DNA from: Cyanobacteria bacterium P01_F01_bin.150
GTDB taxonomy: Bacteria; Cyanobacteriota; Cyanobacteriia; CAKZMO01
NCBI GenBank assembly: GCA_039189765.1
Contig: JBCCYL010000026.1
Coordinates: 2,787 to 66,786 of the forward strand
Direction of reading: 5' to 3'
DNA length: 64,000 bases
The notes under the pieces are model-generated. The model was given only the letters and a program-made list of their open reading frames with translations. It did no database searches and had not been told where the DNA came from. Of this stretch, positions 49,561-63,149 are shown one piece after another. The number at the start of each line of letters is the position of its first letter. Position 1 is the stretch's first letter. A program made the position numbers and the translations under genes.

Positions 49561-51255
49561 TTAGAATTTCGCTTCAGACACGAAATTATTGGCAAGAGTC
49601 AGGGCGTTGAGTTGGGCTTTAGACTTATTAAGGGATTCAATCCATTCATGGGTGGGCTGGCTATCGGCAACAATTCCTGCACCCACTTGGCCCCAGATAA
49701 GCCGAGGCGAACAGGGTGAAGTAGGGTTAGGCTGAGATTCACACAGCAAGGTGCGAATCAAAATATTCAGGTCTAACATCCCCCTTTGATCCAAATAGCC
49801 ACAGGATCCATAAAAAAGGCTACGACGAACGGGTTCCAATTCTTCAATAATTTCCATACAGCGCACCTTAGGGCATCCGGTAATCGTACCGCCAGGAAAG
49901 AGCGATCGCACCACATCAACAACCGTTTGGCCGGGAGCGAGAGTGCCGACAACATTACTGACTAAATGCATCACATGACTATAGCTTTCGATGGTCAGCA
50001 GTTCGTCCACTTGAACGCTGCCCCATTGGCAAACGCGTCCTAAGTCATTACGCTCCAGATCCACCAACATAATGTGTTCAGCATTTTCTTTACGATTATC
50101 TGTTAGTTCCTGCTCATAGGCTAAGTCTTGCTCAAGTGTACTACCTCGTGGACGGGTTCCTGCTATTGGGCGAGTTTCGACAATGCGATCGCGGACCTTA
50201 ACTAACCGCTCGGGGGAACAGCTAACCACATCGCCCCAGGGGGTATGCCAATAGCTAGAAAAAGGAGAGGGATTAACCTGCTGTAGGGATCGATAAATGA
50301 GCCAACTAGGAGCCGCCGTTGTCGTCGAAAATCTTAGGGATAAATTAGTCTGAAAGATATCACCGGCCTGAATGTAGGCTTTGGCTTTCCGGACGGCTTC
50401 TTCGTAGTCCTGTTGGTTGGAAAGGAAGTTGAGGGTAGTCGAGGTGGGGAGTTGGGGAGGTGGGGAGGTGGGGAGTTGGGGGGGGAGGATGCTGGTGAGG
50501 TGATGGCTGAGGGTGTCGAGGTCGGAGGGGTTGGTGGCTGCTAGCCAGAGAGTTTGATCGAGGTGATCGAGAATGACAAACGTTTCGGGTTCATACCAGA
50601 AGGAAACAGGAAACGGGAGGGGATCGGCGTTTTGTTCTGGTAGAGTTTCAATTTCCCAGGCGACATCATAGCCTAACCAACCTAGCCAGCCTCCGTGAAA
50701 GGGAAGATGGGGAGGTGGGGAGGTGGGGAGCAAGGAGGCAGGGGAGCGGGGGAGCGGGGGAGCGGGGGAGCGGGCAAGCAGAATTTGGAGGGTGGAGAGG
50801 TGGGTGCCTGGTTTTGGAGTCCAGTGTTGGGATTGATTATTGAGGATGCGGGGTGCTCCGGCGCAGATTGAGTAGCGGGGTGTTGGGCGTTGGGCGTTGG
50901 GGCGTTGGGCGTTGGGGCGTTGGGCGTTGGGGCGTTGGAGAAGGGAGGCATTGGAGTCAGGGGATGAGGGACTTTCGAGGAGGGTAGCGATCGCGCTTTT
51001 CGGCATGCTTGTCTCAGGCTCAATGTATAGCGCCTGAAAGATTTCAGCTCCAGTGCGATGGTTGAGGGGGAGCGATCGCCAATGCCAAGGCTGTAGTGGA
51101 CAGTCCGCAGAAGGGCTGTCTCCACTTCCTGGAGGTAGCCGTGAATCATGGGTCTCAGAATTCAATACGTTTTGCTCCATGATCTTTGATTCTCTCCCCA
51201 AACTACTGAATACTGAAATCCTTATTGGATGCTGAAATTCGCCTTTGATGCCCAC
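49561..51255 (-). CDS. Chorismate-binding enzyme (aminodeoxychorismate/anthranilate synthase component I family) with low-complexity Pro-rich and QRPNA-repeat insertions
   Basis: C-terminal chorismate-binding signatures (VGAGIVADSQPTHEWIESLNKSKA; LFPGGTITGCPK) and N-domain GGWLGWLGYD. Carries QRPNAQRPNAQRPNAQRP and LPTSPPPQLPTSPPP inserts. The start may be the internal MEQNV. Confidence 0.7.
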   Translation of the reverse strand: MGIKGEFQHPIRISVFSSLGRESKIMEQNVLNSETHDSRLPPGSGDSPSADCPLQPWHWRSLPLNHRTGAEIFQALYIEPETSMPKSAIATLLESPSSPDSNASLLQRPNAQRPNAQRPNAQRPTPRYSICAGAPRILNNQSQHWTPKPGTHLSTLQILLARSPAPPLPRSPASLLPTSPPPHLPFHGGWLGWLGYDVAWEIETLPEQNADPLPFPVSFWYEPETFVILDHLDQTLWLAATNPSDLDTLSHHLTSILPPQLPTSPPPQLPTSTTLNFLSNQQDYEEAVRKAKAYIQAGDIFQTNLSLRFSTTTAAPSWLIYRSLQQVNPSPFSSYWHTPWGDVVSCSPERLVKVRDRIVETRPIAGTRPRGSTLEQDLAYEQELTDNRKENAEHIMLVDLERNDLGRVCQWGSVQVDELLTIESYSHVMHLVSNVVGTLAPGQTVVDVVRSLFPGGTITGCPKVRCMEIIEELEPVRRSLFYGSCGYLDQRGMLDLNILIRTLLCESQPNPTSPCSPRLIWGQVGAGIVADSQPTHEWIESLNKSKAQLNALTLANNFVSEAKF

Positions 51256-54204: not shown

Positions 54205-54588
54205 TCACCGTTGTTCTACGGTAGAAGGTACGTCCGTAAGACCAAAATGTTGCATAAGCATAGCAATGCCAAAGAGGGAGATGCCTCCAATGATCACGCC
54301 TATCACAATAAGAACAATATAAACTTTGAGAGCTGATCGACGGGCCTTATCAAATCGTTCACCTTGATCTTCAAACACTGGAATTAACTCTGGTGGCTCT
54401 TGGGACTGCCTAGTCAAGCTTGAACGATTGCCTGCCTCTAAACCATCTCCCCCCTTCCCGTATCCATACGAAGAGCCTGTTTTGGAAAACCCATTGCGAT
54501 TTAGACCGTTGGTTGATTTGCCATTGCCATTTTGTGGAAGTGACTGATCATCTGGGGAAAAAGGGTCCATAGGCCTCCATACGTTCAA
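54205..54588 (-). CDS. Small hypothetical protein with a C-terminal TM helix
   Basis: ORF with one hydrophobic segment (VYIVLIVIGVIIGGISLFGIAMLM). Confidence 0.3.
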   Translation of the reverse strand: MNVWRPMDPFSPDDQSLPQNGNGKSTNGLNRNGFSKTGSSYGYGKGGDGLEAGNRSSLTRQSQEPPELIPVFEDQGERFDKARRSALKVYIVLIVIGVIIGGISLFGIAMLMQHFGLTDVPSTVEQR

Positions 54589-55076: not shown

Positions 55077-56066
55077 ATGGAAGTTGTCGAATTAAAGTTT
55101 TTGCTGGCTCTACTAGGTCATCCCCCTGATTATCACACTGCTTTATCAGAATTACGTCCCACGGAAAGTCGCTCTGATCGGAATCGAGCCTGTCGCCAGT
55201 TGCGCGATCGCAACTTAATTGGCTGTTCTGAGGAAATCATGCAGTTCAAAACCTCCCCATCGGGTAAAGCCCTATTGACGCTATCTGAACAATCTTCAGT
55301 GCTCGGTGATTCTGAGTCTTCAAGCACCGGTAAAGCGAAAACGTCGGCCAAGGGCAAAGCGAAGGCAAAGACAAAGGGAACAAAGACGAAAGGAAAAGCA
55401 ATTAAAGGGACATCAAAGACGAAGGCAAAGGCCAGTAGTGAGGTCTTACCGATCACCAAAGACGAGATTAAGCTTCTGAAGGCGGGATTAAAAGGTCTCA
55501 TTACCCCCGGAAAAGCAATGAAAGGGACGCCACCCCAAAAACGTCAGGAGTTATTGCAGGAGCTAGATACGCGAGGTCTGATCCAGGCAGAAACCCAGAT
55601 CAAGAATGTGTGGCTAACCCCCCAAGGACGGGAATTTCTGATTAGCGATTGTCACCCCGACGGCAACCATACGGTGAGCTTTAACTTTTTGAGAAACTGT
55701 ATGGATTTTTTCCGGGGGGAATTAAAGCGATCGCCTGCACCGAATGGCAAAACGACGGCTGCAATCCCTAATGATTTGTGCTGGGATAAATCGCAAAAGC
55801 CAGGTGCTGAGGATGTTTTAGATCTAATTCAAGCATTAGATCAGGCATTAGAGACTCACAATTATCTGCCACTGTTTCACCTCCGCTATGCCGTGCAGCC
55901 TCCCCTTGTTGCCGATGAATTGGATCAGATCCTGTATCAGCTTCAACGAGAGGACAAAATTGAGTTAAGCTCTCTGCAAGACGCGATCGCCTACACTGCT
56001 GACCAGCTCAGTTCAGGTATTCCCCAGGATATTGGTGGTCCTTTATTTTTTGTTTCCCTATGCTGA
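55077..56066 (+). CDS. Hypothetical protein with a histone-H1-like lysine-rich linker (KAKTSAKGKAKAKTKGTKTKGK) between helical segments; possible DNA-binding protein
   Basis: Lys/Ala/Thr/Gly-rich ~45-aa stretch flanked by regions with winged-helix-like character; 50 bp upstream of the NTPase gene on the same strand. Confidence 0.45.
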   Translation: MEVVELKFLLALLGHPPDYHTALSELRPTESRSDRNRACRQLRDRNLIGCSEEIMQFKTSPSGKALLTLSEQSSVLGDSESSSTGKAKTSAKGKAKAKTKGTKTKGKAIKGTSKTKAKASSEVLPITKDEIKLLKAGLKGLITPGKAMKGTPPQKRQELLQELDTRGLIQAETQIKNVWLTPQGREFLISDCHPDGNHTVSFNFLRNCMDFFRGELKRSPAPNGKTTAAIPNDLCWDKSQKPGAEDVLDLIQALDQALETHNYLPLFHLRYAVQPPLVADELDQILYQLQREDKIELSSLQDAIAYTADQLSSGIPQDIGGPLFFVSLC

Positions 56067-56115
56067 AGTCCTCTCTCCGCCGTTGTCCTTGCCCTGCTCT
56101 CCCTGCTTGTGACCT

Positions 56116-58281
56116 ATGAACTCTATTGACCAACTTGTTTGCCAAGCAATTAATCCCTTTGACCCGGCAACCTTCAAGCCGGGTAACTTTTGGTATGAGC
56201 AGCCTGATTTAGAATTGGAAGTCGATTCTATTCATCAAGACGCGGTCGATCAGGCCAGTGAAATGGTGACCCAGGTTGTGGCAGACCACCAAACCCGTAC
56301 GTTGCTATTAATGGGAGACTCTGGCTCCGGTAAGTCTTACTTGTTGGGACGGATAAAACGGCAGCTAAACGACCAGGCATCTTTTGTCTATATTGATCCA
56401 TTTCCAGACAGTCAGGCCATTTGGCGACACATCTTACGGTACACCGTTGATGGATTAATTCAAGCACCCATCGTAAGTGGGGAAGCCGCTTCAACTAAAG
56501 CTAAATCCAAATCTAAATCGAGGAAAAAACCGCAGTCCCAGCTGCTCCGCTGGTTGAAGCAGCTAGCAGTGCTTGACTCAAAAGATGTGGGTAAATGGGG
56601 CAAAATTAAGCGTCAGCGAGTCATTCAAAAGCTGAAGGATGCCTATCCCACTGGCATTTACAACCCCAGTGAATTTTTTGGAGCACTGTATGATCTCCTA
56701 GATCCCAGTCGCTATACCACCGCCTGTGAGTGGCTGCGGGGGGATGACATAGATCAAGAAAGTCTCGAAACGTTGCAGGTGAAGGAGGCGATCGTCACCG
56801 AAGATGCAGCTCAAAAAATCCTTGCCAACTTTGGTCGCATTGCCGCCGATACCCAGCCGATTATTTTGTGCTTTGACCAGCTCGACAACATTGCTCGCAA
56901 TGCGGAAGGACAGATAGATTTACAATCTCTATTTGGCGTTAACTCTACTATTCACAATCAAGGGCTAAAGAATTTTCTGGTCATTATCAGCATCATTACC
57001 AGCACGTGGCGGCAGCAATCCCAGCTCATACAGACGGCTGATCGCGCTCGCATTGACCAAACCGTCTCCCTACGTCGGATTTCCCTTGACCAGGCAGAAG
57101 CCCTGTGGGCCTATCGTCTTGCCCCGCTCCATGCGGAAGCGGATCCGGCACCAGAATCGGCGATCGCACCCTTTAGCCGCAGGGCTTTAGACCGTAAATT
57201 TCCCGGCGGAAAAACCCATCCCCGCAATGTATTGGAGCTAGGCCGTCGCCAGTTCCAAGCCGTAAAAACAGGGGTAGCTGATAAGCTTGGTTTGGATGGA
57301 ACGGGTGTCCCTTCTGAGGCCAAGACACCTTCGACAGGGACTCAATCCTCAGGACCGATGCTGGCACAGAGCAAAGAGGATCGAGTGGCGGCCTTTCGGC
57401 TACTATGGCGGAAAGAATTGGCCCAAACCCAAGAGAGAATTACCCGCCTGCGTCAGCTTGCAGCTCCTGATCTAATTCTGATGCTACAGGAAATGCTGGA
57501 GGTCATCAAGATTGAGGATGTGCGATCGCGCCTTATCCCCAGCCAGACCTACACAAGCCATTCCCTCAGCTATAAGGCTCGCCCCACCGATAATCTCCCC
57601 TCCCACGCTCGGATTGGGGTAGTGTGGAACGATGATCCCAATATGACAACCTTTTACCATGTGATGAATGCCTGTTGGCGAGTCACATCCATTGGCCTTT
57701 GCCATACCCTGTACCTGATTCGTTCATCCCATACTGGAAAACGAGGCCGCAAGAGTAATGCCTTGTTTAATGAGATTTTTGATGGCAAGCCCCATCAACG
57801 CATTCGCGTCGATCTGCTATCGGTCCAGTATTTGGCAACCTACCATCGCTTGGTCAATGCAGCCCATGGCCAGGAACTGATGGTGGCAGGGGCCATCATT
57901 GGCCTGGAGGGGCTAGAGTCATTGATGCGGAAAGCCCGAATTCCTCGCAACTGTCGATTACTACAGGATTTAGGCTTAGTGTGGGGACGTGAGCGACGTT
58001 CACACAGCGCTTCGGAGGACGCATCCAGTCAAGAGGATGAGCCAAATCCTGTACGCCTTAGTAAGGAATTGGAACCCATCAAAGAGTTTCTCCTGGATTT
58101 GATTAAAACTCACCGGATTTTAGGCGTTTCCACCCTAATTGATACAGCAGCAATGGAGTTTCCCCAAGTGCCGCCGGACCAGTGGCAGAAGTTGGTGACT
58201 GATTTGTGTAAAGGGAAACAGGTTAAGCTACTGGACCCAAAGGCAAAATTGGATGCTCAACTTATTGCCTTTTCTGACTAG
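56116..58281 (+). CDS. NACHT/STAND-like P-loop NTPase (721 aa) without recognisable repeat sensor domains
   Basis: Walker A LLLMGDSGSGKSY, Walker B IILCFDQLDN (the hhhhD-G/Q-hD-E/N pattern of STAND NTPases), then LVIISIITSTWRQ resembling the NACHT TSR motif. Confidence 0.5.
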   Translation: MNSIDQLVCQAINPFDPATFKPGNFWYEQPDLELEVDSIHQDAVDQASEMVTQVVADHQTRTLLLMGDSGSGKSYLLGRIKRQLNDQASFVYIDPFPDSQAIWRHILRYTVDGLIQAPIVSGEAASTKAKSKSKSRKKPQSQLLRWLKQLAVLDSKDVGKWGKIKRQRVIQKLKDAYPTGIYNPSEFFGALYDLLDPSRYTTACEWLRGDDIDQESLETLQVKEAIVTEDAAQKILANFGRIAADTQPIILCFDQLDNIARNAEGQIDLQSLFGVNSTIHNQGLKNFLVIISIITSTWRQQSQLIQTADRARIDQTVSLRRISLDQAEALWAYRLAPLHAEADPAPESAIAPFSRRALDRKFPGGKTHPRNVLELGRRQFQAVKTGVADKLGLDGTGVPSEAKTPSTGTQSSGPMLAQSKEDRVAAFRLLWRKELAQTQERITRLRQLAAPDLILMLQEMLEVIKIEDVRSRLIPSQTYTSHSLSYKARPTDNLPSHARIGVVWNDDPNMTTFYHVMNACWRVTSIGLCHTLYLIRSSHTGKRGRKSNALFNEIFDGKPHQRIRVDLLSVQYLATYHRLVNAAHGQELMVAGAIIGLEGLESLMRKARIPRNCRLLQDLGLVWGRERRSHSASEDASSQEDEPNPVRLSKELEPIKEFLLDLIKTHRILGVSTLIDTAAMEFPQVPPDQWQKLVTDLCKGKQVKLLDPKAKLDAQLIAFSD

Positions 58282-58552: not shown

Positions 58553-58975
58553 CTAGAACGATGTCACCAGAGCTTCGAAAATAGCGCCTTCACTGCCTGC
58601 CGTATCGGTAAGGTTAGCAAAGTCGTCAAGCACATACCCCACTTGCTGAAGCAACGCAGCCACAAGCTGATCGGGCAGAGCATCTGCTAAAAATTCCTCC
58701 GCTAAATAAACGGTGTTGGCTTCCGCCACATAAACGGCAGTTCCTCCATCTAAGACCTCAGCTGCTACTAATTCCAATGGAATGAGCGCGGTTAAACCTT
58801 CAAGGCCTAGGGTACTGATTATTTTCTGTACAGTTTCTAGGTTTAGCTGGTCACCAAAAACATCAGCTAACAGCACTGTGGCGTCTGTTTGTGAGAAAAA
58901 TGTGCTAAGAATTGTTGCTGCCTGTACCAGAGCATTATCGAGTTTTGTGGCAAGATCGGGCGTTGCAGTAGGCAT
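58553..58975 (-). CDS. Hypothetical acidic Ala/Leu-rich protein
   Basis: ORF only. Confidence 0.3.
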   Translation of the reverse strand: MPTATPDLATKLDNALVQAATILSTFFSQTDATVLLADVFGDQLNLETVQKIISTLGLEGLTALIPLELVAAEVLDGGTAVYVAEANTVYLAEEFLADALPDQLVAALLQQVGYVLDDFANLTDTAGSEGAIFEALVTSF

Positions 58976-60273: not shown

Positions 60274-61638
60274 TCAATCATCAAAAGAAAAGGGAGCAAG
60301 AGCGATCGGGTGTCCAGAGCCATTATCAATGACTACCCAAAAGCATTCTTGGCGATCGCCCACCACCTGGGCATATAAATAGCCATCGGAGCTTGTCGCC
60401 GATAGTTGACGATCGGCTAAGCATTGAGATTGATCGTACACGGTCAATCTCATTCCCATTGGAGCAGGCGTTCCTGGAGTAGTGCCTAAAATAAGCAATA
60501 GGACCCATTCATTTTTATCTAATGGCCAGATGATGGCATATAGACGCAGGGTCAGTTCGTTTTGAACGATATCTTTGTAAGCACCTTGTGCGTGAGGGGA
60601 GATAGCAATTCCATCCGCATTGAGAGATGCAACAACAGTTTCAAAGTTATCGACGAGAGACGCTGATCGCAAACCTCTAAACCCCAGGGATAAAGACGGC
60701 ATTAATACCCATTCCAGATCTTGGGCAATCTGCCCTAGTTGATTTTGCAACCATTGCCCAGCATTAACGATTGATGGAGCCAGGGGCTGTGCAGCTATTG
60801 ATTCAATGTTTTGAGCACTGGACTGATACTTATCTTCAAACACGGGCCGTAGGGGCAATGGCTCTCGCCCCATCTGTAGCTGATAGAGCCAGTTTTGCTG
60901 CTCCACACATTGCAAAATAATGGCCGCCTCTTGCCAGGATAATACGTCTTCCAAGGGAAACTCAGGGTCCCGTAGCCGAGGCCAGAGTTGGTTCAGCCTT
61001 TGGGATAGGATGGCGATCGCATTAGTTTCTACACCTACGGCTTGGGGCAGCGGCACACTATTGGGGTCTAATCGTTCCAGAATCAGCAACAACGAATCAA
61101 CATCCGTTGTAAATGTTGCTTTAGCAATGTCGTAGGTCCATGATGTGGGGTTACGCTCAATAATCTGAGACATTAACTGAGAATGGGTGCCGTATCCTAC
61201 CACTTGCACCTGCTGGTGCTCCTCAAGAACATCTACAAGAATATAAATCTGAGCCGCATAGTCTGACAGGTCCAGTACAGCACGGGGAATGGAAAGAATC
61301 GGATCGTCCAAGCATCCAAGCGCTAGTAAACACACCTTCATATTGTTGACCGATAGCTGGCAAACTGACTCAACAAGAGAAGCGATCGCAGGCTGATAGA
61401 GTGAGCAAGTCTCAGCATGGAGGGGAAAACGGGGCGATCGCGATCGCAACCATTGCTTAAATCCTGACAATGCCAGGGCATGGCGATAAATTTGCCATTG
61501 GCGGTCCGGTTTTGAGATTGCTTGGGATACTTGAACCGCATTTTCAATATCTGCGTTGCTGAGAGTAACGGTATCAAGCGGGAGGACAGTCCAATCCTGG
61601 CGGTCACTGGGGCCAGGATTACTAGGTGAAAACATCAT
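60274..61638 (-). CDS. Hypothetical protein (possibly DUF1822-like, cyanobacteria-restricted)
   Basis: Long ORF; the family assignment is from memory of general composition only, with no motif support. Confidence 0.35.
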   Translation of the reverse strand: MMFSPSNPGPSDRQDWTVLPLDTVTLSNADIENAVQVSQAISKPDRQWQIYRHALALSGFKQWLRSRSPRFPLHAETCSLYQPAIASLVESVCQLSVNNMKVCLLALGCLDDPILSIPRAVLDLSDYAAQIYILVDVLEEHQQVQVVGYGTHSQLMSQIIERNPTSWTYDIAKATFTTDVDSLLLILERLDPNSVPLPQAVGVETNAIAILSQRLNQLWPRLRDPEFPLEDVLSWQEAAIILQCVEQQNWLYQLQMGREPLPLRPVFEDKYQSSAQNIESIAAQPLAPSIVNAGQWLQNQLGQIAQDLEWVLMPSLSLGFRGLRSASLVDNFETVVASLNADGIAISPHAQGAYKDIVQNELTLRLYAIIWPLDKNEWVLLLILGTTPGTPAPMGMRLTVYDQSQCLADRQLSATSSDGYLYAQVVGDRQECFWVVIDNGSGHPIALAPFSFDD

Positions 61639-61736: not shown

Positions 61737-63149
61737 TTAAGCCGTACTTATAGACTTCAGGTAATCGCATAGGCGACGGGCAAATAAACTTTTTAGGGGA
61801 TGGTGGCGGGTTCCACTAGTTTCGTCCACGGCTTCTTGGATAACAGCATTTACCTGCTCTTCCAAGGCTGAATCCATCTGCTGTAGTTGAGCAATATCTA
61901 CATAAGAAGACGCTAACTTTTCTACTGAGGCGCATAACTTTGCCAACACAGCTCGTCGTACATCAGCTCGTATCTCCTTTAGTTTGAGTAATCGAGTGAC
62001 TTGGTATTGAGCCTTTAACTTTAGCGGTTTGGCAATCTCGCCCATCGACATGCCGCAGCAGTGAAACAAGTGCAGTCCTTGGACGAACTGATCGGCGTTG
62101 CCTTTTTTGCTTTTTTGAAGCTGAGAGATGCGATCGCCCACAACTTCAGCGATGGCCTGATCTAAACAAATTTTGAGCTGGACACGATACTGGGCTAAAA
62201 AAGTATCAGCAGCATCTTCGTCCGGTGGTAGTTCTGCTGTTTTGTCCCCTACACTTACCTGCCCTTCTGGTGTATTCAACGATACGTTATCTGTCCTGCC
62301 CCCTCTGGCATAAATACGATATTGGCGTAAATAGTCAGCGAGCTGCCTCAAGGATTTCATAACATTTACGGGATTATTTAAAGTATTTGACTGGTACACC
62401 AACGACGCAGAGGCCCGCGACAATGTTTTTCGTTCCATAAACGCCACCATCCGTTGGAGTTGATCGGTGGATGGGGGAGAGCATAGGCGACCCTGGCGTT
62501 TTTTCAGTTTGAGGCGATCGCTTCGATAGACCTGATGATAAGCCGTTAACAAATAGGCATTGGTTTCTATTTCCATCTGACTTAGGGTATGAAATTCAGT
62601 CAAGATCCGCCGAAGCTGTTGCCCAGATGTATCATTCAAAATAGCCCAATCACTGACCCGATAGACCCCCTGCTCCAGCAAAAACTGATTGAGATCAGAA
62701 TGCTGTTTAACCCGCTGAGTCACCCAATGACCTAAGCCAGCGCGCTCTAGATCAATAGTATTTAGAATATCCGTTGCCAATGAGACATTGGGGGTTTGGG
62801 TGGATGATTTGCGATAAAAACGACCGTCATCACTGAGAACATAAGGAAGTAAATCGAGCTGGGTAAACCCATGATTATGGCCAAACTGGTCGGCAAGCTG
62901 GGCACAAGCCTGATCGATCTGATAGGAAATAAAACATCGTAGACATATCTCAGCAAGTAGGGACTCTGGCGCTGATTGTGTCTGCATTTGCTTCCATAAC
63001 GTCCATTGGACATCACGATTAGGCAAATCCGTCAGGCCATTGCCAAAAATCTGACCCAGAAAATCAGCGGCCTCTGTTACCTGTCGGCGTTGGCGTTGTC
63101 CTCCCATATTCAAAGTAATCATTTGGCTATAGTGTGATACAACTGCCAT
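61737..63149 (-). CDS. Hypothetical protein (470 aa), co-directional with the upstream 454-aa ORF
   Basis: ORF only. Confidence 0.35.
   Translation of the reverse strand: MAVVSHYSQMITLNMGGQRQRRQVTEAADFLGQIFGNGLTDLPNRDVQWTLWKQMQTQSAPESLLAEICLRCFISYQIDQACAQLADQFGHNHGFTQLDLLPYVLSDDGRFYRKSSTQTPNVSLATDILNTIDLERAGLGHWVTQRVKQHSDLNQFLLEQGVYRVSDWAILNDTSGQQLRRILTEFHTLSQMEIETNAYLLTAYHQVYRSDRLKLKKRQGRLCSPPSTDQLQRMVAFMERKTLSRASASLVYQSNTLNNPVNVMKSLRQLADYLRQYRIYARGGRTDNVSLNTPEGQVSVGDKTAELPPDEDAADTFLAQYRVQLKICLDQAIAEVVGDRISQLQKSKKGNADQFVQGLHLFHCCGMSMGEIAKPLKLKAQYQVTRLLKLKEIRADVRRAVLAKLCASVEKLASSYVDIAQLQQMDSALEEQVNAVIQEAVDETSGTRHHPLKSLFARRLCDYLKSISTA

What the first reader, a model, noticed from the sequence alone, without database searches (positions are those of the whole stretch)
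55077..58281. Two-gene module: histone-H1-like lysine-rich protein followed by a NACHT/STAND-like NTPase lacking repeat sensor domains
The 721-aa NTPase has Walker A, a STAND-type Walker B (CFDQLDN) and a TSR-like motif (ITSTWR). Unlike the abundant cyanobacterial NACHT-WD40/TPR proteins, it has no repeat array and no N-terminal effector. It is preceded by 50 bp by a protein with a KAK/TKG lysine-rich linker reminiscent of histone H1 or nucleoid proteins. STAND NTPases paired with a small partner are a recurring theme in antiviral and signalling systems, so this could be an uncharacterised module.
Basis: partly seen in the sequence, partly recalled or inferred. Interest (0 to 1): 0.6.

Follow-up and report, generated by a model that had tools for sequence, protein, structure and literature searches.

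The report
Cyanobacterial rcaD–rcaG DNA-binding/ATPase gene pair
The two genes are real and conserved together, but they are this genome's copy of the already named cyanobacterial rcaD–rcaG pair (a winged-helix DNA-binding protein plus its ATPase), not a new histone-like/NACHT module. The unexpected result is that in many other genomes the same pair is followed by a nuclease–DNA-translocase gene that is missing here.

Summary
Both ORFs exist as described: 55077-56066 (329 aa) and 56116-58281 (721 aa), same strand, 49-nt gap.

- **Upstream protein.** It belongs to the family that NCBI and UniRef name "transcription factor RcaD". It folds as three winged-helix domains.
- **Lysine-rich "H1-like" linker.** It is a disordered low-complexity insertion, present in 7 of 84 family members.
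- **ATPase.** It is the RcaG-type partner. It passes Pfam AAA_16, fails NACHT, and its model resembles ORC/Cdc6 AAA+ proteins most closely. It has no PADLOC match.
- **Linkage.** An rcaD-like gene sits directly upstream of rcaG in 72 of 78 informative cyanobacterial loci.
- **Prior description.** The pair was described in Calothrix PCC 7601 (Noubir 2002, as summarised in PMC2799420) as a promoter-binding protein plus a putative ATPase.

New here:
- In 36 of 60 informative cyanobacterial loci, rcaG is followed by a 3'-5' exonuclease / Cas4-like nuclease / FtsK gene.
- Starting from that gene, 60 of 63 informative metagenome loci have rcaG just upstream.
- Distant RcaD/RcaG-like pairs with such a nuclease occur outside cyanobacteria, once fused into a single protein.
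- The window and its closest relatives lack this third gene next to the pair.

Verdict: a new member of a known but poorly understood pair, of moderate interest.

The parts
55077..56066 (+). rcaD-like gene (329 aa), encoding a DNA-binding protein with three winged-helix domains
   Evidence: ORF. There are 369 cyanobacterial homologs, several named 'Transcription factor RcaD'. It is 35.7% identical (E 5e-50) to the Scytonema protein that NCBI names RcaD. The AlphaFold model has pLDDT 85.3.
55077..55307 (+). RcaD winged helix 1 (residues 1-77)
   Evidence: Helix and strand pattern. It is an internal duplicate of wH2 (hhalign probability 95.9%, E 5.5e-9).
55308..55448 (+).
   Evidence: pLDDT is below 50 for residues 86-121. 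The insertion is present in only 7 of 84 family members and varies in length from 32 to 67 residues. Short DNA tandem repeats lie at 55349-55395.
55449..55730 (+). RcaD winged helix 2 (residues 125-218)
   Evidence: The family profile gives weak MarR/HosA and S10e/S25e winged-helix matches in PDB.
55806..56063 (+). RcaD C-terminal winged helix 3 (residues 244-329), the most conserved part (NYLPxFHLR...LYxLQ...GGPLFF)
   Evidence: Invariant columns. Weak Z-alpha-type winged-helix matches: 1sfu at E 0.0033 and 4kmf with TM 0.74. PMC2799420 reports the C-terminus as the presumed DNA-binding region.
56067..56115 (+). 49-nt intergenic spacer with no terminator-like hairpin, so co-transcription is likely
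   Evidence: The median rcaD-rcaG gap in 72 loci is 64 nt.
56116..58281 (+). rcaG-like gene (721 aa), encoding an AAA_16 / ORC-Cdc6-like P-loop ATPase with a middle alpha/beta domain and a C-terminal winged helix
56116..56235 (+). Conserved N-terminal motif region (NPFD...GNFW...SIH, residues 1-40)
   Evidence: Residues N13, P14, F15, N24, F25, W26, I39 and H40 are invariant in 83 sequences. The NPF is retained in the distant Thermodesulfobacteriota relative.
56236..57300 (+). AAA+ core and lid (residues 41-395), including Walker A 56314-56337, Walker B 56860-56889, sensor-1-like T295, ADRARID 57034-57054 and GGKTHPR...GR 57205-57246
   Evidence: Pfam AAA_16 covers residues 54-275. Conservation, coordinates, fold matches.
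56470..56532 (+). Lys/Ser-rich insertion inside RcaG (residues 119-139), specific to this lineage
   Evidence: Present in 3 of 83 members. pLDDT is below 50 for residues 124-134. A DNA repeat lies at 56497-56519.
57373..57993 (+). RcaG middle alpha/beta domain (residues 420-626), unclassified
   Evidence: Confidently modelled and conserved, but with no PDB sequence relative. It is retained in the distant relative P0447.
58048..58278 (+). RcaG C-terminal winged-helix-like domain (residues 645-721)
   Evidence: Helix-strand-helix-helix-strand-strand pattern at pLDDT about 88-93. ORC/Cdc6 matches span up to 600 or more alignment columns. The assignment as a winged helix is my reading of the secondary structure.

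Best explanation
This is the window organism's copy of the cyanobacterial rcaD-rcaG operon. RcaD is a DNA-binding protein built from three winged-helix domains; the first two are an internal duplication and the third is the most conserved. RcaG is its dedicated partner, an AAA+ ATPase of the AAA_16 / ORC-Cdc6-like type with its own C-terminal winged helix. The two genes are most likely co-transcribed. I infer that RcaG binds ATP and acts as a nucleotide-dependent switch or loader. The basis is an intact Walker A, and a Walker B that reads D-Q/N rather than D-E throughout the family, which suggests slow hydrolysis. In this reading RcaG controls how RcaD occupies DNA. In many other cyanobacteria the pair drives or targets a third protein, a 3'-5' exonuclease / Cas4-like nuclease / FtsK translocase. 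That gene is not next to the pair here or in its closest relatives. In this lineage the output is therefore more likely DNA occupancy or transcriptional control, as reported for phycobiliprotein promoters in Calothrix, than DNA degradation. The lysine-rich linkers in both proteins are recent disordered low-complexity insertions; they may add non-specific DNA affinity but do not define the system. Shown: gene identity, conservation, linkage, domain folds, and the three-gene association elsewhere. Inferred: physical RcaD-RcaG interaction, switch-like ATPase behaviour, and the output in this lineage.
For: Identity: RcaD-family naming by NCBI and UniRef. The window protein is 35.7% identical (E 5e-50) to the NCBI-named Scytonema RcaD encoded directly upstream of a 45%-identical RcaG homolog. 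PMC2799420 summarises RcaD as a cpc2-promoter-binding activator, and RcaG as a putative ATPase encoded just downstream that may help RcaD bind DNA. Linkage: 72 of 78 informative loci, median gap 64 nt; no terminator in the 49-nt spacer. Folds: RcaD has three winged helices with wH1 and wH2 duplicated. RcaG passes AAA_16, its model has pLDDT 85.5 and pTM 0.85, and its best PDB matches are ORC4, Cdc6 and Orc1. Motif conservation; LCFD[QN]L[DE]N was one of the conserved peptide patterns used for the genome scan and is retained as LCFDQIE in a Thermodesulfobacteriota relative. Housekeeping context and identities that fall off with taxonomic distance. Functional coupling to a nuclease-translocase elsewhere. 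Absence of that gene here.
Against: No direct comparison with the original Calothrix PCC 7601 sequences was possible, because they are not in any accessible source and the primary paper is not held. Orthology therefore rests on naming, synteny and full-length similarity. No interaction prediction or ATPase evidence was obtained. The published transcription role comes from one organism and from DNA-affinity work. The family occurs in cyanobacterial orders well beyond the one organism studied, and it is tightly coupled to a nuclease elsewhere. Both points suggest that transcription control may not be the primary function. The third gene could exist elsewhere in this genome, since only 64 kb was visible.
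Confidence: 0.68

Rival explanations
1. The pair is the DNA-recognition and ATPase-switch half of a three-component DNA-degrading machine, used for defence against foreign DNA or for DNA-end processing and repair. The effector would be a 3'-5' exonuclease / PD-(D/E)XK / FtsK protein encoded elsewhere in this genome. On this reading the 'transcription factor' label reflects general DNA affinity.
For: In 36 of 60 informative cyanobacterial loci the nuclease-FtsK gene follows rcaG; in the two loci examined it starts 22 nt after rcaG or overlaps it by 4 nt. From the nuclease side, 60 of 63 informative metagenome loci have rcaG upstream. Distant pairs in Planctomycetota, Thermodesulfobacteriota and other MAGs keep an RcaD-like protein (E 1.6e-16 and about 1e-10), the ATPase and a Cas4-like nuclease with or without HerA/FtsK. 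Limnochorda P0474 fuses the ATPase and the nuclease-FtsK in one chain. The non-cyanobacterial neighbourhoods include a methyltransferase/HNH, TIR-WD40, SIR2 and AAA_5 genes. The effector's ATPase resembles SspH, mad8 and HerA defence components. Both RcaD-like proteins of Lyngbya were pulled down by the same unrelated promoter DNA (PMC2799420).
Against: No third-gene homolog occurs anywhere in the 64-kb window. None lies next to the pair in any close relative with at least 3 kb of downstream sequence (L003-L005, L007-L009, L012, L013). RcaD/RcaG persist without it in 24 of 60 loci, so they have an effector-independent role. No PADLOC family matches RcaD or RcaG. No RcaG relative was found on viral contigs. 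The pair looks vertically inherited and sits among housekeeping genes.
Confidence: 0.22
2. One reading: an uncharacterised antiviral or signalling module made of a NACHT/STAND NTPase and a histone-H1-like nucleoid protein.
For: The Walker B pattern D-x-h-D also fits the NACHT style D-G-h-D-E (from general knowledge of NACHT motifs). A precomputed NACHT hit is listed for 14 of the 120 family members shown. There are weak Avs2 and nSTAND hits confined to the Walker A region. The lysine-rich segment exists.
Against: NACHT is below its cut-off and matches only residues 61-87. None of the 50 best PDB fold matches listed is a STAND protein. The linker is confined to one clade and is disordered. The family is already named and partly studied. 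PADLOC is negative.
Confidence: 0.05
3. A general nucleoid-associated or chromosome-organising pair, consisting of an abundant low-specificity DNA binder and an ATPase that remodels or loads it, with no dedicated target genes.
For: There are three winged helices plus, in this clade, lysine-rich tails in both partners. The family is widespread among cyanobacteria. A ParA-like gene is often nearby in Nostocales. The protein was pulled down by unrelated promoters.
Against: There is no evidence on abundance or genome-wide binding. The tight coupling to a nuclease elsewhere does not fit a purely architectural role.
Confidence: 0.08

Closest known systems
RcaD-RcaG of Calothrix/Fremyella/Tolypothrix sp. 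PCC 7601 (Noubir et al. 2002, Mol Microbiol 43:749; summarised in PMC2799420)
   Same: A DNA-binding protein of about 280 aa with a conserved C-terminal domain is followed immediately by a co-oriented P-loop ATPase gene. The family naming is the same and the synteny holds across cyanobacteria.
   Different: The window's proteins carry lysine-rich disordered insertions (329 aa against about 280, and 721 aa against about 670-700). The organism is an uncultured marine MAG (Cyanobacteria bacterium P01_F01_bin.150) whose pigment physiology is unknown. Identity to Nostocales orthologs is only about 35% for RcaD and about 45% for RcaG.
ORC/Cdc6 (Orc1) AAA+ initiator proteins
   Same: They are the best structural matches (5zr1_D ORC4, 7jgr_G Cdc6, 2qby_B, 1fnn_A; E 1e-4 to 2e-3, probability 1.0). 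The layout of an AAA+ core, a lid and a C-terminal winged helix is shared. So is a Walker B pattern D-x-h-D and a GxxxPR...L..LGR stretch that recalls the Cdc6 sensor-2 'GDAR' motif; that last comparison is by eye and from memory.
   Different: RcaG has a helical insertion of about 150 residues between strand beta-2 and Walker B, an extra 200-residue alpha/beta domain before the winged helix, Q or N in place of the catalytic Glu, and a conserved N-terminal NPF/GNFW motif. TM-scores are low (0.24-0.46). No sequence-level ORC family reaches significance.
STAND NTPases (NACHT, NB-ARC, MalT-type AAA_16 proteins)
   Same: RcaG is a P-loop NTPase of the AAA_16 type with a winged helix, and is paired with a partner as in some conflict systems.
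   Different: The NACHT profile is below threshold. There is no repeat sensor domain. None of the 50 best fold matches listed is a STAND structure.
FtsK/HerA-nuclease defence and repair machines (HerA-NurA, SspFGH/DndFGH with SspH, MADS mad8)
   Same: The third gene linked to rcaDG in other genomes has an FtsK/HerA-type motor that matches SspH (1.9e-43), mad8 (4e-21) and HerA profiles, and a Cas4-like PD-(D/E)XK domain.
   Different: None of these systems contains RcaD-like or RcaG-like proteins (no PADLOC hit). The cyanobacterial effector additionally carries a DnaQ/RNase D-type 3'-5' exonuclease. The window itself lacks the effector.

Membership tests
RcaD-RcaG operon (cyanobacteria) | The upstream protein belongs to the RcaD sequence family over its full length | tested here: met
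   There are 369 homologs at 94-100% coverage, several named 'Transcription factor RcaD'. It is 35.7% identical (E 5e-50) to the Scytonema protein P0241, which NCBI names RcaD.
RcaD-RcaG operon (cyanobacteria) | A P-loop ATPase gene (rcaG) lies immediately downstream on the same strand | tested here: met
   The gap in the window is 49 nt. The same arrangement occurs in 72 of 78 informative loci. PMC2799420 describes RcaG as the ATPase downstream of RcaD.
RcaD-RcaG operon (cyanobacteria) | Direct sequence match to the founding proteins of Calothrix PCC 7601 (CAC39267 and its neighbour) | not tested
Orthology is inferred through Nostocales orthologs that carry the RcaD name.
RcaD-RcaG operon (cyanobacteria) | Binds phycobiliprotein promoters and affects chromatic acclimation | not testable with these tools
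   This needs EMSA, ChIP or mutants. It is known only for Calothrix.
NACHT / STAND NTPases | Significant match to the NACHT (or another STAND) profile across the NTPase domain | tested here: not met
   NACHT scores 20.7 bits against a cut-off of 26.7 and covers only residues 61-87. nSTAND3 and nSTAND5 score 12-14.5 bits.
NACHT / STAND NTPases | The fold is closest to STAND NOD modules (Apaf-1, NLR, MalT) | tested here: not met
NACHT / STAND NTPases | A C-terminal repeat sensor (WD40, TPR or LRR) or an N-terminal effector domain | tested here: not met
   There are no repeat Pfam hits. The model shows a single alpha/beta domain and a winged helix.
ORC/Cdc6-type AAA+ ATPases | AAA+ core with Walker A and B, a lid and a C-terminal winged helix, with fold similarity to Orc1/Cdc6 | tested here: inconclusive
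   These are the best fold matches, but with modest scores (E about 1e-4, TM 0.24-0.46). AAA_16 passes. Extra domains and a non-canonical Walker B (D-Q/N) are present. The arginine finger, sensor 2 and the initiator-specific motif could not be checked in 3D.
Known anti-phage defence systems (PADLOC-DB v2) | Significant match of either protein to a defence-system component profile | tested here: not met
   The best hit is mad8 at 1.3e-5 (22.9 bits), over the Walker A end of the ATPase (residues 58-175). RcaD's only hit is BrxA at E 0.05.
Histone H1 / linker-histone-like nucleoid proteins | A linker-histone globular domain, or a lysine-rich tail conserved across the family | tested here: not met
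   No linker-histone Pfam hit at E<=1. The lysine-rich segment occurs in 7 of 84 members only and is disordered.
Z-alpha (Z-DNA-binding) winged helix | Significant match of the RcaD C-terminal domain to the z-alpha profile | tested here: inconclusive
   The window protein has no hit. Seven of 84 family members hit at E >= 0.017. The family profile matches PDB 1sfu at E 0.0033. A phage homolog of the domain does pass Pfam z-alpha (28.5 bits against 21).

The most novel reading that the evidence does not exclude
RcaD and RcaG are not primarily light-colour regulators. They would be the DNA-recognition module and ATP switch of an undescribed, ancient three-gene system whose effector is a fused 3'-5' exonuclease / Cas4-like nuclease / FtsK translocase, able to degrade DNA while moving along it. 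The system is common in cyanobacteria. It occurs sporadically, in defence-island-like settings, in Planctomycetota, Thermodesulfobacteriota and Limnochordia, once as a single fused protein. A cyanophage giant protein carries copies of RcaD's C-terminal domain, possibly as a decoy. The window would then hold an effector-less derivative that has been kept for regulation.
Probability: 0.35. Interest if true: 0.7.

Novelty: new member of a known kind. Interest (0 to 1): 0.42.

Why it matters
For this window the result is mainly a correction. The two proteins, deposited as a hypothetical protein and an 'AAA family ATPase', can be annotated as RcaD and RcaG. The histone-like and NACHT labels should be dropped.

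More broadly, RcaD/RcaG have been cited for two decades as chromatic-acclimation regulators on the basis of one organism. Three findings here point to a more general job on DNA. The pair is widespread among cyanobacteria. In most informative loci it is the front end of an operon with a nuclease-FtsK translocase. Homologous trios and a fusion protein exist in unrelated phyla. Together these give a concrete, testable hypothesis (defence or DNA-end processing) for a conserved cyanobacterial gene set with no known mechanism.

Tried and rejected
- **PADLOC.** Scans of both window proteins and of nine proteins from distant loci matched no defence family for RcaD-like or RcaG-like proteins.
- **NCBIfam.** No model matches RcaD. 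For RcaG the Sll1717 family scores only 29.7 bits against a cut-off of 75.
- **PDB sequence searches.** The RcaG family profile gave only Walker-A-level hits (Rad24, DnaI-like loaders, Rab). The RcaG middle domain (A5) gave nothing meaningful.
- **Domain comparisons.** RcaG's C-terminal winged helix shows no detectable homology to RcaD's winged helices. The L081 298-aa upstream protein is not significantly similar to the RcaD profile.
- **Z-alpha.** Membership of RcaD wH3 is weak and inconsistent.
- **Other searches of the window.** No paralog of either gene occurs elsewhere in the window. The upstream intergenic repeats and the promoter/terminator scan were not above background.
- **Viral contigs.** No RcaG relative was found.
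- **Beyond the window.** The only contig returned is 12,976 bp and shows the same genes as the window.
- **Literature.** Three searches found no description of the three-gene set. The primary RcaD/RcaG paper and a supplement with the Calothrix sequence were not available.


Full report
**1. Observation**

The window holds two co-oriented ORFs, 55077-56066 (329 aa) and 56116-58281 (721 aa), separated by 49 nt.
- No terminator-like hairpin lies in the spacer.
- The upstream protein has a lysine-rich stretch at residues 78-124, with 14 K in the 46 residues counted.
- Both proteins have many full-length homologs: more than 1,000 for the ATPase and 369 for the upstream protein, all named hits being cyanobacterial.
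- An identical copy of each is deposited from the MAG 'Cyanobacteria bacterium P01_F01_bin.150', as 'AAA family ATPase' and 'hypothetical protein'.

**2. What the genes are**

Several sources name relatives of the upstream protein 'Transcription factor RcaD'.

I searched with the ORF that sits directly upstream of the ATPase homolog in Scytonema (locus L021). The result was a long list of Nostocales proteins that NCBI calls 'transcription factor RcaD', including that ORF itself. The window protein is 35.7% identical to it (E 5e-50). The ATPase is 45% identical over residues 1-719 to its Scytonema neighbour.

RcaD and RcaG were described in Calothrix (Fremyella/Tolypothrix) PCC 7601 by Noubir et al. 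2002. That paper is not held. Jones et al. 2009 (PMC2799420) summarise it as follows:
- RcaD binds the cpc2 promoter and alters expression of several phycobiliprotein operons during acclimation.
- RcaG is a putative ATPase encoded just downstream that may help RcaD bind DNA.
- The conserved C-terminus of RcaD is the presumed DNA-binding part.
- In Lyngbya the orthologous pair (7968/7969), and a more distant paralogous pair, keep the same gene order.

The module is therefore already named, although little studied.

**3. Linkage**

A scan of reference genomes returned 80 loci with an RcaG homolog, all from cyanobacteria where the record names a taxon.
- In 72 of the 78 loci with enough upstream sequence, an RcaD-like ORF lies directly upstream on the same strand. 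The median gap is 64 nt.
- The exceptions are L004, L015, L023, L066, L074 and L079.
- Some lineages have expanded the genes. Many Oscillatoriales carry rcaD-rcaG-rcaG, L016 carries rcaG-rcaG-rcaD-rcaD-rcaG, and Coleofasciculaceae and Waterburya carry rcaD-rcaD-rcaG.
- The window has a single pair and no paralog elsewhere.
- The neighbours are housekeeping genes: a chorismate-binding enzyme, EcfT and the Der GTPase upstream, and DUF975 and DUF1822 proteins downstream.

**4. Anatomy**

RcaD (AlphaFold model pLDDT 85.3):
- It consists of three winged-helix domains, at residues 1-77, 125-218 and 244-329.
- The first two are an internal duplication (hhalign probability 95.9%).
- The third is the most conserved. 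It gives only generic or weak Z-alpha-like winged-helix matches.
- The 'H1-like' linker is predicted disordered. It is a 32-67-residue insertion in just 7 of 84 family members; the other 77 have about 9 residues there.
- The underlying DNA shows short tandem repeats, as expected for slippage-driven low complexity.

RcaG (AlphaFold model pLDDT 85.5, pTM 0.85):
- The same narrow clade has a Lys/Ser-rich insertion in RcaG as well, in 3 of 83 members.
- The protein has a conserved N-terminal NPF/GNFW motif, then an AAA+ core with a helical insertion of about 150 residues between strand beta-2 and Walker B, and a lid.
- After these come a linker, an unclassified 200-residue alpha/beta domain (no PDB relative) and a C-terminal winged-helix-like domain.

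**5. Classifying the ATPase**

- Pfam AAA_16 passes its cut-off (38.8 against 32.6 bits).
- NACHT does not pass (20.7 against 26.7 bits) and covers residues 61-87 only, the Walker A strand and helix.
- The best PDB fold matches are ORC4, Cdc6 and archaeal Orc1/Cdc6 (E 1e-4 to 2e-3). Lon, NSF, p97, HslU, TnsC and BrxC are also among the 50 listed, and none is an NLR, Apaf-1 or MalT.
- Walker B reads D-Q/N-h-D/E throughout the family, and also in a distant relative. The usual catalytic Glu next to the Asp is absent. I read this as pointing to a slow, switch-like ATPase; that is an inference.
- The invariant GGKTxPR...LGR stretch in the lid recalls the Cdc6 sensor-2 motif. That comparison is by eye and from memory, not a test.
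- PADLOC finds nothing convincing for either protein.

**6.

*Distant relatives outside cyanobacteria*
- An exhaustive profile search found the orthologs (above roughly 390 bits) and a second tier at roughly 120-170 bits.
- The second tier includes proteins from a Thermodesulfobacteriota MAG, a Planctomycetota MAG and Limnochorda.
- The Thermodesulfobacteriota protein aligns to the RcaG profile over 518 columns at probability 99.9%.
- I opened six such loci (L081, L082, L084-L087). In all six, a small protein with no Pfam match precedes the ATPase.
- Two of these small proteins match the RcaD profile directly: L082 at E 1.6e-16 for the full profile, and L086 at about 1e-10 for wH3. Three more are linked to those two by BLASTP through the same C-terminal domain. 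The sixth, in L081, is not significantly similar to the RcaD profile.
- In five of the six loci the next gene encodes a Cas4-like PD-(D/E)XK nuclease, usually fused to an FtsK/HerA ATPase.
- Limnochorda P0474 fuses the RcaG-like ATPase (residues about 18-613) to the nuclease-FtsK part (about 628-1344) in a single chain.

*The same gene in cyanobacteria*
- 36 of 60 informative cyanobacterial loci have a homolog of this third gene on the same strand right after rcaG.
- In Scytonema it starts 22 nt after rcaG. In Gloeocapsopsis it overlaps rcaG by 4 nt.
- It encodes about 865 aa with a DnaQ/RNase D-type 3'-5' exonuclease, a PD-(D/E)XK domain and FtsK alpha and motor domains.

*Reverse test*
- A metagenome scan starting from this third gene gave 63 informative loci, and 60 have rcaG upstream.
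- Two of the three exceptions look like decayed copies.

The nuclease-translocase is almost never found without rcaG. The pair, in contrast, often occurs without the nuclease-translocase.

*The window*
- It has no homolog of the third gene anywhere in its 64 kb.
- None of its closest relatives with sufficient flank has one next to the pair (L003-L005, L007-L009, L012, L013).

I found no paper describing this three-gene set.

**7. Mechanism**

Best-supported reading (confidence about 0.68): this is the rcaD-rcaG operon.
- RcaD binds DNA through its winged helices.
- RcaG, an ATP-binding AAA+ switch with its own winged helix, controls RcaD's engagement with DNA.
- In genomes with the third gene, the pair probably recruits or licenses a translocating nuclease.
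- Here that effector is not linked, so the likely output is DNA occupancy or transcriptional control, as reported in Calothrix.

Shown: identity, linkage, folds and the three-gene association. Inferred: the RcaD-RcaG complex, the switch behaviour and the output in this lineage.

Main rival (confidence about 0.22): the effector is encoded elsewhere in this genome, and the system is really a DNA-surveillance or DNA-processing machine.

**8. Comparison with known systems, and novelty**

- The pair is a member of the RcaD/RcaG family. Sequence family and synteny were tested and met. Direct comparison with the founding sequences, and function, were not tested.
- It is not a NACHT/STAND protein by profile, fold or architecture.
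- It resembles ORC/Cdc6 in fold, but membership is inconclusive.
- It matches no PADLOC defence family.
- The 'histone-like' feature is a recent low-complexity insertion.

For the window, the finding is a new member of a known kind. The part that would interest a specialist is the coupling of a supposed chromatic-acclimation regulator pair to a nuclease-FtsK translocase, together with its presence in unrelated phyla. That coupling makes the function of this conserved cyanobacterial gene set directly testable. Interest is 0.42. The most novel reading not excluded is a new three-component DNA-targeting system of which this is an effector-less derivative (probability about 0.35, interest 0.7 if true).

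Noticed in passing
L021:8162-10759, L014:7971-10559 and 34 other cyanobacterial loci (not in the window): A gene of about 865 aa follows rcaG on the same strand in 36 of 60 informative loci. It encodes a 3'-5' exonuclease (DNA_pol_A_exo1), a PD-(D/E)XK/Cas4-like nuclease and an FtsK alpha plus motor domain. Conversely, 60 of 63 informative metagenome loci with this gene have rcaG upstream. I found no description of it in the literature.
   Followed up: yes
L081, L082/L083, L084, L085, L086, L087; protein P0474: Distant RcaD-like and RcaG-like pairs occur outside cyanobacteria (Thermodesulfobacteriota and Planctomycetota MAGs, and other MAGs of unknown taxon). Five of the six are followed by a Cas4-like nuclease, usually fused to HerA/FtsK. 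Limnochorda P0474 (1348 aa) fuses the ATPase and the nuclease-FtsK. Neighbours include an N6/N4 methyltransferase with HNH, TIR-WD40, SIR2 and AAA_5 genes, which looks like a defence island.
   Followed up: partly
L088:1073-9906 and L089:4471-12579 (IMG/VR viral contigs): A giant phage ORF of more than 2,700 aa has a tape-measure- or polyvalent-protein-like N-terminus. It contains two or more tandem copies of the RcaD C-terminal winged helix (46-49% identity). One copy passes Pfam z-alpha (28.5 bits). It could be a decoy of the host RcaD domain; that is speculative.
   Followed up: partly
L013, L016, L017, L026, L062, L070, L077 and others: There are lineage-specific tandem expansions: rcaD-rcaG-rcaG in many Oscillatoriales, rcaG-rcaG-rcaD-rcaD-rcaG in L016, and rcaD-rcaD-rcaG in Coleofasciculaceae and Waterburya. 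Several Oscillatoriales loci with duplicated rcaG (for example L017, L019, L026, L047) lack the adjacent nuclease-FtsK gene.
   Followed up: partly
window 55308-55448 and 56470-56532: Both partners acquired Lys/Ser-rich disordered insertions in the same narrow clade (7 of 84 RcaD and 3 of 83 RcaG homologs). Their length varies between close relatives, and the DNA shows 11-15-nt tandem repeats. This parallel gain may raise non-specific DNA affinity.
   Followed up: yes
L021:10996-11889 and many Nostocales loci: A ParA/MinD-type ATPase gene (AAA_31/CbiA) follows the nuclease-FtsK gene on the same strand, with orthologs at 60-95% identity in many Nostocales loci. It is also present in L017 and L047, which lack the nuclease gene. 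This may be plain conserved synteny.
   Followed up: partly
L028:5788-10650: In a Chroococcidiopsis MAG the ORF after rcaG is 1,620 aa, roughly 750 aa longer at the N-terminus than the usual nuclease-FtsK protein. The extra region was not examined.
   Followed up: no
window 60274-61638 (-) and 61737-63149 (-): A DUF1822 protein (454 aa) lies next to a 470-aa protein with no significant Pfam family. They are co-oriented with a 98-nt gap and may form another conserved cyanobacterial pair of unknown function.
   Followed up: no
window 49561-51255 (-), especially 50500-50999: The chorismate-binding (PabB/TrpE-like) ORF carries proline-rich low-complexity repeats in its N-terminal half (QRPNAQRPNAQRPNAQRPTP; PPQLPTSPPPQLPTS). 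This coincides with a local GC peak (0.60) and strong GC skew (0.51).
   Followed up: no
window 54205-54588 (-) and 58553-58975 (-): Two small ORFs flank the pair (127 aa and 140 aa) and have no Pfam family. Gene callers also call both on the Logan contig (L090), the first from a later start (121 aa).
   Followed up: no
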